From assembly GCF_003334385.1 (NCBI RefSeq), contig NZ_QOWN01000001.1: DNA of 64,000 bases, one strand, 5' to 3'. Made by a program: the position numbers. Positions 24,001-27,000 of this stretch are shown here, piece by piece. Numbering within the stretch: the first letter of the stretch is position 1; each line of letters begins with the position of its first letter. The DNA is from Escherichia coli. Lineage in GTDB: Bacteria > Pseudomonadota > Gammaproteobacteria > Enterobacterales > Enterobacteriaceae.

Positions 24001-27000
24001 TCCGGCAACAATGTGGTGGCGCTGGCAGCAAAAGCAGGATACAGCACATGGTGGATATCCAATCAAGGAAAACTGGGGGAGCATGACACACGCATCTCTG
24101 TTATTGCTTCTGATGCGGAGCATGCCACTTTCCTCAAGAAAGGCAGCTTCGCTTCCCGTAAAACAGATGACAAACTGTTGTTACAGGAAACAGAACGTGC
24201 GCTGGCGGATACATCCTCTCCGAAGATAATTTTCCTGCACATGATGGGTTCTCATCCAAATCCGTGTGACAGCCTTAACTCCTAGCCGAATAATTACCTG
24301 GAGCAGTATCCCCGAAAAATTGCCTGTTACCTCGCCAGCATCAGTAAACTGGATAACTTTCTTGGCCAGCTTGATGGTATCCTTCGCCGGTACTCACGTC
24401 ATTTCGCCATGCTTTACTTTTCTGGCCTTGGGCTGTCGGTCAGCGACAGTGCCAATCCTGTTCATCATTATGGTCATGTGCAGGGAGGCTACAGTGTGCC
24501 ACTGATTATTACCGCCAGTGACATAACGTCTCATCAGCCCGTCAGTAGAAAAATCAGTGCCCGTCATTTCGCAGGTATTTTTCAGTGGCTGACCGGCATT
24601 CGTACTGAAAATATACCGCCATTCAATCCGCTGACAGACGAAGATAATGAACTCATTATGGTTTTTAACGGAGACAAGAATGTACCGACAGACAGCCTTG
24701 AGTCACAGCCTCTGATTCTTCCGGGCAAGGGAAAATAAGAGTAATGTTCATCACCAGGTTATGTACGATGAGTTTTCCACTGTTTATAGCAATTATCTTG
24801 CTAATAACCAGGAGTAACCAGACCAACCGAAAACTCCGGGGAGGTGATTACCCGCTGGCAGGATAAATCTGTAGTTTTTGATGCCAGCTATAACGTGTTT
24901 GACGATAAAGTATTACGAAAGAACTTTAATGAGTTCATGGAGTAATTCGTTAAAGTAATTTACAACGCTATCCTTTTGCAAAGGAAACTTTCAGAAAATA
25001 ACCCCAGGGTAATCACCTGGGGAAGGAACACAGTGTTATTATTGGATAATAAATTATTACTTGTTTTAAAGTTACACTAATGCAATATCTACTGATGCTG
25101 GATGCTTGAATGTTTTATCCCTGCTGCGGAAAAGGGCAATATCCAGGGCCAGATATATTCACCGTTCATATTTCTGCATTTCTGTACAATTTCCTCAGAA
25201 AGTGTCTTGTCAATTCTTTTCCACAGGTGCTCCTGCTGTCTTAAAATACTTTCGCATATTTCGAAATCATCTTCCTGAATCAGCATTTCGGCGCATTTAA
25301 TGATTTCTGATCGTTCATGCAGCACGGAGGAATGGTTATAGAGCCAGTTTACAAACAGCAATGCTTCCGAATATTGTCCCCATAATGGTGAGTATGTTGC
25401 ATAGTAATCTTCTGCCGTATCCAGAGAGCCGGAGAAGTCATGCCACACAGCAAGTGGAAATGGATGCAGATTTCCGCACAGCATTTCTGCGATGTAAGTG
25501 TTTGTGGCAAAGCCATGGCGAAAAGCTGTGGCGGCCTTAACATGTTCCCCGTTCAGAAAATGCAGGAGACCGAGTTCATACCAGTAAGGTGAAAATTCAT
25601 CAGCATGCTCTTTCAGTACACTGAAGGCTCGCTCATGATCGCCGGTGCGTAACAGCTCTGAACCCAACAACCAGCGAGCCCCCTGATTATCTTCAGGATT
25701 GTATGCCAGTATTTTATCAGTGAGCATAACCGCATCCTGATGGCGCTGTAAGTGCACATTTGCGAGAATTGCTGCATAAAGCGCGCGCAGATAAGGCCGG
25801 TTTTCGGGATGCATCCAGATTATTTCACCACAGAAACTTTCCGGGATGATACGATTACCTGCCGCCAGTCCTTTAAGAGCGGCGTTCAGTGCCTTACGCG
25901 GGGCATTCTGTTCCAGAAATGCATATGCCAGATGAGCGTGTATATCAATAAAGTCCGGCTCCCGTTGAGCAAGGCGTCGGAGTTTGTTGATGTAACTCGT
26001 CTCGCTGATTTCATCAGCGTCGTATGCATCAAGCACTTCTTCAAACTCCCCCAGCAATGGGCCAAACCAGGTATCCGGAAATACGAAATAACCCTTGTTA
26101 TCGTGCACTTCAAAGCATAATCTATCGTTCATTTTCTGAGCCTGTAAAACATGTGGTGATATAGTCTGAGAGCATAAAAGTTGAGATTCTGTGTATCAAG
26201 TCCTGTCTTGGCACCGAATGAATATTGCTTACGAAGCCCCTTCATGCTTTCCTTGAGAACAATAATTTTATCTTTATGTGAATCTCATTTTTTATAATGA
26301 TGTCAGATGATTGAAATGCTAAATTATATCTGAATCAACTTTTCCTTTGCTAAAGGTATCGAAATAACTACAAGGCTGTATTTTGTAATTGCCAATTTAA
26401 AAATGTCAATTTGTTTTTAATTATGTTTTTGTAATAAGTTTGAAGACGCAAAAAAATAATATAATAACAAAAATCCTCCAGCCTTGTAGGCCAGAGGATA
26501 AAATACTTAATTGAGGAAAACATCAGGGAAAAGTATTTCTGACTTAACTTTCCCGGCTGGAGAGTGAATCAATGTAATCAGCGTACCATTGCATCATTTC
26601 ACGGCGGCCATCGAGATACAGGGCATGATTATAGGTACCCCTGATGGAATTTTTATCCACATGAGCTAACTGCATTTCAATCCAGGCGGAGTTAAAGCCT
26701 TGTTCATGCAGAATTGTACTCATGGTGTGTCTGAAACCGTGCCCTGTGAGTCTTCCCTTATATCCAAGTAATTCAATTACTTGATTAATGCTTTCCTTAC
26801 TAATTGGTTTGCGGGGATCATTTCTACCGATAAAGACTAGGGGATGATGTTTTGAGATTGGTTCAAGCTGCTTAAATAGCATAATAACCTGCTCAGAGAG
26901 CGGCACAATATGAGGTCGCTTCATCTTCATTACTTCTGCCGGGATCTCCCACAATTTTGTCTCAAAATCGATATCTTCCCAGCGTGCAAAACGCAGTTCT

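What the first reader, a model, noticed from the sequence alone, without database searches (positions are those of the whole stretch)
25089..26132. Uncharacterised 347-aa protein immediately next to the integrase
Integrase-proximal positions are frequent sites for accessory cargo such as defence, anti-defence or regulatory genes. The ORF is intact, has its own candidate terminator (24990..25022), and has no recognisable catalytic motif.
Basis: inference. Interest (0 to 1): 0.35.

Follow-up and report, generated by a model that had tools for sequence, protein, structure and literature searches.

The report
shiA gene: TCF25-like repeat protein
The "uncharacterised" ORF is shiA, a published E. 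coli/Shigella island gene that dampens host inflammation by an unknown mechanism, and its protein family turns out to be a probable bacterial relative of the eukaryotic ribosome-quality-control factor TCF25/Rqc1.

Summary
The ORF is real: 25089-26132 on the minus strand, 347 aa, intact, with its own terminator, 411 nt downstream of a P4-type integrase at tRNA-Sec. It is not uncharacterised. It is shiA (sisB-type allele). It is 343/347 identical to the Shigella flexneri protein in the same selC/SHI-2 slot. It carries both published shiA PCR primers exactly, giving the published 292-bp product. It also sits in the published order tRNA-int-shiA-sulfatase-tia. ShiA, SisA and SisB are reported to dampen host inflammation, but their mechanism is unknown.

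New here:
- The family (about 200 clusters at 50% identity) is spread across Proteobacteria, mostly on mobile elements: integrase islands, Tn3-family transposons (translationally coupled to the resolvase), conjugative elements and plasmids.
- It is soluble, has no catalytic motif, and is under purifying selection (dN/dS about 0.15).
- Fold search, Pfam hits in divergent members, and HH-alignment all link it to the eukaryotic Tcf25/Rqc1 domain. ShiA's invariant N111 and D148 align with Rqc1's most conserved residues, Asn423 and Asp461.

The gene identity is already known. The TCF25 kinship appears to be unreported and gives testable hypotheses for the mechanism.

The parts
25089..26132 (-). shiA (sisB-type allele) CDS: 347 aa, 40 kDa, pI 5.2, soluble repeat protein. 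Residues 6-17 form a beta-hairpin and residues 20-335 an alpha-solenoid.
   Evidence: ORF. 343/347 identical to the S. flexneri selC-locus protein. PGAP names it WP_000999841.1, 'tetratricopeptide repeat protein'. AF2 model has pLDDT 93. No transmembrane segment or signal peptide.
25891..25910 (-). Exact match to the published sisA/shiA forward PCR primer CAGAATGCCCCGCGTAAGGC
   Evidence: Primer quoted in PMC2978726 and PMC3256949.
25619..25644 (+). Exact match to the published sisB/shiA reverse primer. With the forward primer it gives a 292-bp in-silico amplicon, which is the published size.
   Evidence: Primer and size from PMC3256949. The sisA-specific reverse primer is absent from the window.
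24992..25022 (-). Intrinsic-terminator-like hairpin plus T-tract downstream of shiA
   Evidence: The hairpin also appears in the RNA fold.
26380..26409 (-). Best sigma-70-like promoter candidate for shiA (TTGACA-18-CAAAAT, 10 of 12), in the AT-rich int-shiA spacer. Inferred, not shown.
   Evidence: Promoter-like sites are not enriched over shuffles (7 found against 5.1 expected).
26473..26499 (-). Terminator-like hairpin (12-bp stem) directly after the integrase stop codon. It separates int and shiA transcription.
26544..27728 (-). P4-type tyrosine integrase of the selC island
   Evidence: Pfam Arm-DNA-bind_3/Phage_int_M/Phage_integrase on the identical-length S. flexneri orthologue.
28028..28122 (-). 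tRNA-Sec (selC), the island's insertion site. yicJ and yicI follow.
23236..24738 (+). Sulfatase-family phosphoethanolamine transferase, convergent with shiA. It is the 'orf/sulfatase' of the published int-shiA-orf-tia module. Here it is a pseudogene: TGG to TAG at 24283-24285.
   Evidence: Module order from PMC7371111.
22306..23061 (+). tia (Hra/Hek/Hes-family outer-membrane invasin), the third gene of the module

Best explanation
The ORF is shiA, in its sisB-type allele. It is the first cargo gene after the P4-type integrase in the conserved 'tRNA-int-shiA-sulfatase/PEtN transferase-tia/hes' head module of E. coli/Shigella tRNA-inserted islands. Here that module heads a roughly 51-kb ExPEC selC island carrying pap, pgt, ireA and other genes. 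The product is a soluble 40-kDa protein with no enzymatic domain. It has one N-terminal beta-hairpin packed onto an alpha-helical repeat solenoid. It most likely works as a non-catalytic binding adaptor that holds or orients a partner protein. SHOWN here: the gene's identity, its position, its intactness, purifying selection, the confident fold, the absence of secretion or membrane signals, the broad distribution on mobile elements, and sequence-plus-structure kinship to the eukaryotic Tcf25/Rqc1 domain. TAKEN FROM THE LITERATURE: loss of shiA (Shigella), or of sisA and sisB (UPEC), increases early host inflammation, and the gene is expressed during human urinary infection and induced anaerobically. 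INFERRED: the protein lacks any export signal, and it occurs in T3SS-less E. coli, in the lab strain BL21, and in soil and water Proteobacteria. Its primary partner is therefore probably inside the bacterium, and the effect on the host is probably indirect. By analogy with TCF25, the partner could be a ribosome-associated or protein-modification factor.
For: Identity:
- 100% DNA identity to UPEC132 and other E. coli genomes, annotated as int / TPR protein / PEtN transferase.
- 343/347 aa identity to the S. flexneri protein sitting at yicI-yicJ-(selC)-int-TPR.
- Both published primers match exactly, giving a 292-bp amplicon.
- The sisA-specific primer is absent here but present in the 83%-identity pheV/pheU copies.

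Protein:
- pLDDT 93, pTM 0.88.
- Only generic TPR hits among solved structures by sequence.
- No PADLOC hit.
- Maximum hydropathy 0.75 over 19 aa, pI 5.2, dN/dS about 0.15.

Tcf25 link:
- Pfam Tcf25 is hit by 12 of 89 family members at E <= 1e-3, best 3.2e-10.
- hhalign of the family profile against the authentic Rqc1 fragment 368-488 gives 88.9% probability, E 2.4e-6. The reversed-sequence control gives 0.17%.
- The Rqc1 fragment is not TPR-like to Pfam. It hits only Tcf25, at 2e-49.
- The alignment pairs ShiA N111 and D148 (invariant in A1, at least 90% in A3) with Rqc1 Asn423 and Asp461. A preprint names these as the most conserved residues of the eukaryotic family.
- Both proteins have a single small beta-sheet.

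Distribution.
Against: - The window protein itself has no Pfam Tcf25 hit at E <= 10. The close-relative alignment A1 reaches only 41% hhalign probability.
- The template was one 121-residue fragment, and helical solenoids can converge.
- The C-terminal third gave no sequence match to Rqc1.
- I could not superpose coordinates, so the N111-hairpin contact is inferred.
- No partner protein is identified.
- No single conserved neighbour gene exists across 38 non-redundant loci.
- The primary phenotype papers (Ingersoll 2003 and 2006, Lloyd 2009) were not readable here. Their findings are cited through secondary sources.
- The 2026 STEC study deleted hes, sisA, the PEtN-transferase gene between them and part of atoS together, so it does not isolate sisA.
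Confidence: 0.75

Rival explanations
1. Host-acting TCF25 mimic. ShiA reaches the host cytosol. Like TCF25, it binds ubiquitin and an E2-E3 pair and biases ubiquitin-chain linkage, for example towards K48. This would blunt NF-kB-type inflammatory signalling.
For: The Tcf25-domain kinship. TCF25 binds the Listerin RING and orients the acceptor ubiquitin to impose K48 chains (PMC12047659). Published anti-inflammatory phenotypes exist in two pathogens. The gene is expressed in human UTI.
Against: There is no signal peptide or known secretion signal. The UPEC strains in which sisA/sisB were studied, and the lab strain BL21, also carry the gene; that those E. coli strains lack a virulence T3SS is from my own knowledge. 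Relatives occur in Rhizobium, Sphingobium, Massilia and Pseudomonas putida, on plasmids and transposons. ShiA has only 5 residues before the hairpin, so it lacks the long N-terminal region of Rqc1/TCF25. The Listerin-RING-binding helices of TCF25 (aa 188-202) probably lie in that region, but the placement is my inference.
Confidence: 0.15
2. Mobile-element backbone factor. The protein assists or regulates site-specific recombination, excision or transfer of the element that carries it.
For: It lies directly downstream of P4-type integrases at selC, pheV and pheU, with different cargo beyond it. It is translationally coupled (ATGA overlap) to a serine resolvase inside Tn3-family transposons in Klebsiella, P. 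amygdali and Morganella. That is the slot where TA pairs have been argued to belong to the transposition module. It sits beside relaxase, coupling-protein and FlhDC-like genes in conjugative elements.
Against: Related integrases (any blastn match to the junction queries) occur in about 5000 E. coli genomes, but the TPR gene is largely intact in only 1983. There are clear cases of a 99%-identical int with no shiA. int and shiA are separated by a terminator. My profiles detected a recombinase within about 600 nt in only 7 of 38 non-redundant loci. The partners belong to two unrelated recombinase families.
Confidence: 0.12
3. Phage-defence or anti-defence gene, as the first reader suggested for integrase-proximal cargo.
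For: The position is integrase-proximal. Some relatives sit among defence-like genes: a PtuA/MAD3-like ATPase plus UvrD helicase, a PLD DrmC-like protein, HsdR, AbiEii and antirestriction genes.
Against: No PADLOC match and no meaningful PHROG match. It is a single gene with no effector domain and no fixed partner gene.
Confidence: 0.06
4. The Tcf25 resemblance is convergent. ShiA is simply a divergent TPR protein with no evolutionary link to TCF25/Rqc1.
Against: The Rqc1 fragment is not recognised as TPR by Pfam. The alignment register places the two families' most conserved polar residues on each other. The reversed control fails. Rqc1 is the only solved structure that aligns over 267 residues.
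Confidence: 0.25

Closest known systems
ShiA of Shigella flexneri SHI-2 (selC island) and SisB of UPEC CFT073
   Same: Same locus (selC, directly after the P4-type int), same length (347 aa, 1,044 bp), 99% identity to the S. flexneri chromosomal copy, and both published PCR primers match exactly.
   Different: There are four amino-acid differences from the S. flexneri copy, three of them in the disordered C-terminal tail. The island beyond it carries pap, tia and pgt rather than aerobactin.
SisA of UPEC / STEC LAA module I
   Same: A paralogous allele in the same int-TPR-sulfatase-...-OMP module at pheV/pheU, with the same length.
   Different: Only 83% identical. The integrase is different (421 aa). 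The sisA-specific primer is absent from the window.
Eukaryotic TCF25 / yeast Rqc1 (Pfam Tcf25, PF04910)
   Different: ShiA is about half the size and lacks the long N-terminal region (polybasic tract). It is bacterial and carried on mobile elements. No ribosome, Listerin or ubiquitin link has been shown. The window protein itself is below Pfam detection.
Generic bacterial TPR adaptors and regulators (MamA, YrrB, PilF, RapI/RapH, PlcR, T3SS chaperone SctY)
   Different: The matches cover at most half of the protein. SctY scores 27.6 against a cutoff of 70. The family has its own full-length conserved motifs that canonical TPR proteins lack.
Toxin-antitoxin pairs embedded between tnpA and tnpR of Tn3-family transposons
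   Same: The TPR gene of the Klebsiella, Pseudomonas and Morganella relatives occupies the same slot, in an operon with the resolvase.
   Different: It is a single gene, unrelated in sequence, and no toxin is evident. This applies to relatives, not to the window copy.

Membership tests
ShiA/SisB (SHI-2-type shiA) | Near-identity to S. flexneri ShiA (the literature gives SisB 96.8% and REL606 ECB_03517 97% identical to ShiA) | tested here: met
   343/347 identical to the S. flexneri chromosomal protein P0004. GenBank AF141323 itself could not be fetched, so the reference used is the S. flexneri genome copy at the SHI-2 position.
ShiA/SisB (SHI-2-type shiA) | Position immediately downstream of the P4-type integrase at tRNA-Sec (selC) | tested here: met
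   The arrangement is the same in S. flexneri and BL21.
ShiA/SisB (SHI-2-type shiA) | Amplifiable with the published shiA primer pair (sisA forward + sisB reverse), 292-bp product | tested here: met
   Exact matches at 25891-25910 and 25619-25644, giving 292 bp.
ShiA/SisB (SHI-2-type shiA) | Attenuates the host inflammatory response in infection models | not testable with these tools
   Known only from the literature. The primary papers are not held.
SisA | Carries the sisA-specific reverse-primer site, is about 83% identical to ShiA, and lies at pheV/pheU | tested here: not met
   The primer is absent from the window even with 3 mismatches allowed, but present in L019-L022. The window copy is at selC.
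Tetratricopeptide-repeat (TPR) proteins | Significant match to TPR-clan profiles and a helical-hairpin solenoid fold | tested here: met
Tcf25/Rqc1 domain (PF04910) | Significant Pfam Tcf25 match | tested here: inconclusive
   The window protein has no hit at E <= 10. Among family members, 12 of 89 hit at E <= 1e-3, with a best value of 3.2e-10. For P0150, Tcf25 is the top hit at 1.1e-3, model positions 88-214.
Tcf25/Rqc1 domain (PF04910) | The family's most conserved residues (Rqc1 Asn423 and Asp461) present at equivalent positions | tested here: met
   hhalign pairs ShiA N111 with N423 and D148 with D461. Both are invariant in A1 and at least 90% conserved in A3. Residue identities come from the authentic PDB chain and the preprint. 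The third conserved residue, Pro531, lies outside the fragment and was not tested.
Tcf25/Rqc1 domain (PF04910) | Overall fold: a single small beta-sheet packed on a helical solenoid, closest to Rqc1 | tested here: met
Tcf25/Rqc1 domain (PF04910) | N-terminal polybasic tract and Listerin-RING-binding helices; association with the 60S subunit and RQC | not testable with these tools
   ShiA begins 5 residues before the hairpin, so no equivalent N-terminal region exists. Binding functions cannot be tested in silico here.
Known anti-phage defence systems (PADLOC-DB) | Match to any defence-system component model | tested here: not met
   0 families at E <= 1.
T3SS chaperone SctY | Score at or above the NCBIfam curated cutoff (70 bits) | tested here: not met
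   27.6 bits over residues 122-206 only.

The most novel reading that the evidence does not exclude
ShiA, SisA, SisB and their roughly 200 proteobacterial relatives are the first recognised prokaryotic members of the Tcf25/Rqc1 domain family, and mobile elements have spread them. ShiA's unexplained anti-inflammatory effect would then come from a TCF25-like activity: holding and orienting a ubiquitin or ubiquitin-like modifier with its ligase, or docking on the large ribosomal subunit. It would not come from any classical effector chemistry.
Probability: 0.2. Interest if true: 0.85.

Novelty: already known. Interest (0 to 1): 0.45.

Why it matters
As a gene call this is routine. shiA/sisB is a catalogued virulence-associated gene, present in identical form in hundreds of sequenced E. 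coli. The value lies in what the family analysis adds. ShiA/SisA/SisB have had infection phenotypes for about twenty years but no molecular mechanism, and reviews still give inconsistent guesses (one calls ShiA a 'putative quinone reductase'). Two results reframe the question. First, the family is a mobile-element-borne group spread across Proteobacteria, with no secretion signal. Second, it is probably related to the Tcf25/Rqc1 domain, with the signature Asn and Asp conserved. Either a bacterial-cell function has an indirect effect on the host, or a TCF25-like adaptor acts on ubiquitin-type pathways. Both readings can be tested directly with point mutants (N111A, D148A), interaction screens and translocation assays. 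If the homology holds, it would also give the 'eukaryote-only' TCF25 family a bacterial branch.

Tried and rejected
- PADLOC, PHROGs and NCBIfam gave nothing usable. The weak SctY chaperone hit is far below cutoff.
- Sequence-only searches of the PDB with the family profiles return only generic TPR proteins.
- A sub-profile of the C-terminal third finds no Rqc1.
- Single-sequence phmmer of two divergent members finds nothing.
- The word-indexed homology search with the wide alignment only re-found close relatives and cost one capped search.
- Baits for the regions flanking the Rqc1 core did not retrieve the chain, so the hairpin and C-terminal equivalences could not be tested by sequence.
- The idea of an obligate recombinase cofactor is rejected. 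Related integrases are about 2.5 times more widespread than the gene, a terminator separates int from shiA, and most environmental homologues have no recombinase detectable within 8 kb.
- A first impression that the Oxalobacteraceae copies lie in a 'housekeeping' context was revised. They sit at the junction between the core nadD-rsfS-rlmH-maf-rng operon and a variable segment, with a type I HsdR next door in one genome.
- The 'putative quinone reductase' label in a review has no support in any search here.
- The unbiased search for a conserved partner gene across 38 loci found none.
- The primary papers (Lloyd 2009, Ingersoll 2006) are not in the held library.
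Full report
**1. What is in the window**

The window is Escherichia coli chromosome. 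The stretch 24700-26600 is 100% identical to strain UPEC132 and other ExPEC genomes. The local order is as follows:
- pap operon (papG-II at 20945-21955)
- tia (22306-23061)
- a sulfatase-family phosphoethanolamine transferase (23236-24738)
- the ORF in question (25089-26132, minus strand)
- a 394-aa P4-type tyrosine integrase (26544-27728, minus strand)
- tRNA-Sec (28028-28122)
- yicJ and yicI

In UPEC132 the island runs about 51 kb, from selC to yicL. The window therefore holds its selC-proximal 28 kb.

**2.

The ORF is intact: ATG start, 347 aa. A weak AGG Shine-Dalgarno lies about 8 nt upstream of the start (read). A hairpin plus T-tract lies at 24992-25022, 67 nt after the stop codon. The integrase has its own 12-bp-stem terminator at 26473-26499. 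A promoter-like site (10 of 12 consensus positions) lies at 26380-26409 in the AT-rich 411-nt spacer. So int and the ORF are separate transcription units. These consensus matches are not enriched over shuffled sequence, and only their positions make them credible.

**3. Identity: this is shiA, not an uncharacterised gene**

PGAP calls the product a 'tetratricopeptide repeat protein' (WP_000999841.1). Three independent tests tie it to shiA.
- (a) The S. flexneri member of its 90%-identity cluster is 343/347 identical. It lies at yicI-yicJ-(selC)-P4 int-TPR, which is the SHI-2 shiA position.
- (b) The published shiA PCR pair is the sisA forward primer plus the sisB reverse primer, with a stated product of 292 bp (PMC3256949). 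Both primers match exactly, at 25891-25910 and 25619-25644, giving 292 bp. The sisA-specific reverse primer is absent from the window. It is present in the 83%-identity copies next to the 421-aa integrases at pheV and pheU.
- (c) The literature equates PGAP's 1,044-bp TPR protein with sisA. It also gives the module order 'tRNA-integrase-shiA-orf(sulfatase)-tia' (PMC13340028 and PMC7371111), which is the order seen here.

Reported identities to ShiA are 96.8% for SisB and 83.3% for SisA. The window copy is therefore the ShiA/SisB type. AFDB50 independently names the closest models 'ShiA homolog' and 'ShiA-like protein'.

**4. What is published about function**

Secondary sources report the following:
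- ShiA attenuates inflammation in Shigella infection models.
- SisA and SisB suppress the early host response in UPEC.
- sisA is expressed in urine of infected women.
- shiA is induced anaerobically, independently of FNR.

I found no molecular mechanism in the searchable library. The primary papers were not available. The 2026 STEC study deleted hes, sisA, the PEtN-transferase gene between them and part of atoS together, so it does not isolate sisA.

**5. The protein**

It is 40 kDa with pI 5.2, and it has no hydrophobic segment or signal peptide. Pfam gives only weak TPR-type hits. PADLOC gives nothing, and PHROGs and NCBIfam give nothing above threshold.

The AlphaFold2 model built from a 40-sequence alignment is very confident (pLDDT 93, pTM 0.88). 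It shows a beta-hairpin at residues 6-17, then an all-alpha solenoid to residue 335, then a disordered tail.

The family is conserved along its full length, with its own motifs: ENRPYLRAL, NPxDNQGxRxLLG, YPPYxYE, AATAxRRGFxxNxYIAE, PLxxWH and WPW. Alleles are under purifying selection, with dN/dS about 0.15 between ShiA and SisA.

**6. Distribution in E. coli**

| Measure | Genomes |
|---|---|
| Complete E. coli genomes searched | 5426 |
| With a family copy | 2543 |
| With a largely intact copy (at least 80% coverage) | 1983 |
| Contiguous selC-type int+shiA junction | 564 |
| Contiguous pheV/pheU-type int+sisA junction | 1361 |

Some genomes carry up to six copies. Most intact copies are therefore integrase-adjacent, although I could not compute the exact union of the two junction sets.

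Conversely, related integrases (any blastn match to the junction queries) occur in about 5000 genomes. These include 99%-identical integrases with no shiA next to them.

The cargo beyond the module varies:
- pap/pgt here
- aerobactin in SHI-2
- a NotI-type restriction-modification system in an ST131 strain
- sugar-utilisation genes in BL21(DE3), which carries a 97% allele

O157:H7 retains only a degraded, unannotated remnant beside iha and ter.

**7. Distribution beyond E. coli**

An exhaustive profile search finds 197 clusters (at 50% identity) with E <= 1e-30. Relatives occur in the following settings:
- In Tn3-family transposons, where the gene's stop codon overlaps the resolvase start codon (ATGA). 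This is seen in Klebsiella, Pseudomonas amygdali and Morganella.
- In conjugative elements, between the coupling-protein/DtrJ genes and the SLT/TraL-E-K-B-V-C genes, or divergent from FlhDC-like regulators and a TraI_2 relaxase.
- Two genes from an integrase in P. putida.
- On 74 plasmids from many genera, 44 of them conjugative.

A species-level genome scan gave about 35 full-length copies, mostly in environmental alpha-, beta- and gamma-Proteobacteria.

I then analysed the neighbourhoods of 38 non-redundant loci. No universal partner gene emerged. A recombinase lies within about 600 nt in 7 of the 38. The flanks are mostly accessory genes: relaxases, an ISL3 transposase, Fic proteins, an antitoxin/repressor, a PtuA/MAD3-like ATPase with a UvrD helicase, and a PLD DrmC-like protein.

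In four Oxalobacteraceae the gene sits right after the core nadD-rsfS-rlmH-maf-rng operon, at the edge of a variable segment. In one genome a type I HsdR is next door.

**8. An unexpected kinship with TCF25/Rqc1**

At sequence level:
- 2 of the 40 close relatives touch Pfam Tcf25 weakly.
- In a wider set of 89 full-length members, 12 hit Tcf25 at E <= 1e-3 and 26 at E <= 0.1, with a best value of 3.2e-10. It is the only non-generic family in the list.

To compare directly, I used an imperfectly recalled stretch of human TCF25 purely as bait. With it I recovered the authentic Rqc1 chain segment 368-488 from the PDB.
- hhalign of the 89-member profile against that single fragment gives 88.9% probability and E 2.4e-6 over 91 columns.
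- The reversed fragment gives 0.17%.
- Pfam sees the fragment only as Tcf25 (2e-49), with no TPR family at E <= 10. The match is therefore not generic TPR similarity.
- A plain phmmer run places a family member (P0150) in the same register. For that member, Tcf25 is the top Pfam hit, at 1.1e-3 over model positions 88-214.

The alignment register is informative:
- ShiA ENRPYLRAL pairs with Rqc1 FFNRQFYLAI.
- ShiA NP-EDNQGARWLLG pairs with Rqc1 SPLEDPLGCRYFLD.
- This pairs ShiA N111 with Rqc1 N423, and ShiA D148 with Rqc1 D461.

A 2026 preprint names Asn423, Asp461 and Pro531 as the most conserved residues across about 2,500 eukaryotic homologues. In that account Asn423 packs on the protein's only beta-sheet and Asp461 caps the following helix. 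In ShiA, N111 and D148 are invariant. The main sheet is the N-terminal hairpin, which carries invariant F7, G14 and F16. D148 sits immediately before helix 150-163.

There are caveats:
- The window protein itself is below Pfam detection for Tcf25.
- The close-relative alignment reaches only 41% probability.
- The C-terminal third shows no sequence match.
- I could not superpose coordinates.

I put genuine homology at roughly 0.6-0.7. Neither TCF25 paper that I read mentions bacteria or prokaryotes. No paper in the library pairs TCF25 with 'bacterial homolog'.

**9. How it most likely works**

Shown:
- The protein is soluble, non-enzymatic and a repeat protein.
- It is conserved and under purifying selection.
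- It is carried by mobile elements.

Inferred:
- It acts as a binding adaptor.
- It has no export signal. It also occurs in E. coli that to my knowledge lack a virulence T3SS, in BL21, and in soil and water bacteria. Its primary partner is therefore most likely bacterial, and the effect on inflammation indirect.

TCF25 works by binding the Listerin RING domain and orienting the acceptor ubiquitin. That suggests two concrete alternatives. One is a host-directed action on ubiquitin chains. This is attractive for an anti-inflammatory factor, but there is no delivery route, and ShiA lacks the long N-terminal region of TCF25. The other is a ribosome- or modifier-linked role inside the bacterium.

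A role as an obligate recombinase cofactor is unlikely (section 6). A looser mobile-element function remains possible, because of the operon with the resolvase in Tn3-family elements.

**10. Verdict**

The finding is a correct observation of a known gene. shiA (sisB-type) lies in its canonical integrase-proximal module, so as an object it is 'already known'. 'Uncharacterised' and 'defence/anti-defence' are not supported. The added value is twofold: the family's breadth on mobile elements, and a probable and apparently unreported relationship to the Tcf25/Rqc1 domain. The second makes the long-open question of ShiA's mechanism experimentally approachable.

Noticed in passing
window 23236-24738 (+), stop at 24283-24285: The phosphoethanolamine-transferase gene next to shiA is a pseudogene in this window. 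A TGG-to-TAG nonsense change truncates it at 349 of 500 aa. The change lies inside a roughly 650-bp patch (about 23900-24550) that is several percent divergent from UPEC132, while the flanks are identical. That pattern suggests a recombination tract.
   Followed up: partly
L025 5001-6577; L026 5001-6577; L005 3325-4901: In Tn3-family transposons of Klebsiella, Pseudomonas amygdali and Morganella, the ShiA-family gene lies between tnpA and tnpR. It overlaps the serine-resolvase start codon (ATGA in L025), so the two genes form one translationally coupled operon.
   Followed up: partly
L006-L009, L011-L013: Beta-proteobacterial copies sit inside conjugative elements. They lie either between the coupling-protein/DtrJ genes and SLT-TraL/E/K/B/V/C, or divergent from FlhD/FlhC-like (SetCD-like) regulators next to a TraI_2 relaxase.
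   Followed up: no
L035, L037, L038, L055 (Oxalobacteraceae): The homologue sits directly after the core nadD-rsfS-rlmH-maf-rng operon, which encodes a ribosome-silencing factor, a 23S rRNA methyltransferase and RNase G. It marks the edge of a variable segment (HsdR in L055). This is curious given the Rqc1 (ribosome-bound) kinship, but it may be coincidence.
   Followed up: partly
L023 about 7001-7760 (E. coli O157:H7 G5295): O157:H7 and related STEC carry a degraded, unannotated remnant of the family gene (about 72% identity over 73% of the gene) beside iha and the ter operon, with no adjacent integrase.
   Followed up: no
L024 7001-8044 (BL21(DE3)-derived BLK16): The lab strain BL21 carries a 97%-identical, intact shiA allele after the selC integrase, in a small island of sugar-utilisation genes. 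BL21 served as the non-pathogenic negative control in the 2026 sisA/hes study.
   Followed up: no
window 25089-26132 versus L018 10001-11044: All four nucleotide differences between this shiA and the S. flexneri copy are non-synonymous (S255P, I339M, S343R, H346Y), with none synonymous. Three lie in the disordered C-terminal tail. The number is too small to be significant.
   Followed up: no
L029 (contig labelled 'MAG: Collinsella sp.'): A 3.5-kb contig binned as Collinsella (Actinomycetota) encodes a 99%-identical shiA. This is almost certainly E. coli/Shigella DNA mis-binned into the MAG.
   Followed up: no
L036, L042, L053; L042 4024-7961; L044 4483-6282: Fic-domain proteins flank the homologue in three unrelated environmental loci. 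One locus has a PtuA/MAD3-like ATPase plus a UvrD-type helicase immediately upstream, and another a PLD DrmC-like protein. These are defence-island-like surroundings.
   Followed up: no
literature (PMC7545054): A 2020 review describes ShiA as 'a putative quinone reductase'. Nothing in the sequence, profile or fold searches here supports any oxidoreductase assignment.
   Followed up: yes
window 1-28122 and UPEC132 41830-93166: The selC island is about 51 kb. Besides pap, tia and shiA it carries pgtABCP, ibrB-like/PAPS-reductase genes, ireA, and a CP4-type cbtA/cbeA toxin-antitoxin, antirestriction and DUF932 module at the far end next to yicL.
   Followed up: no
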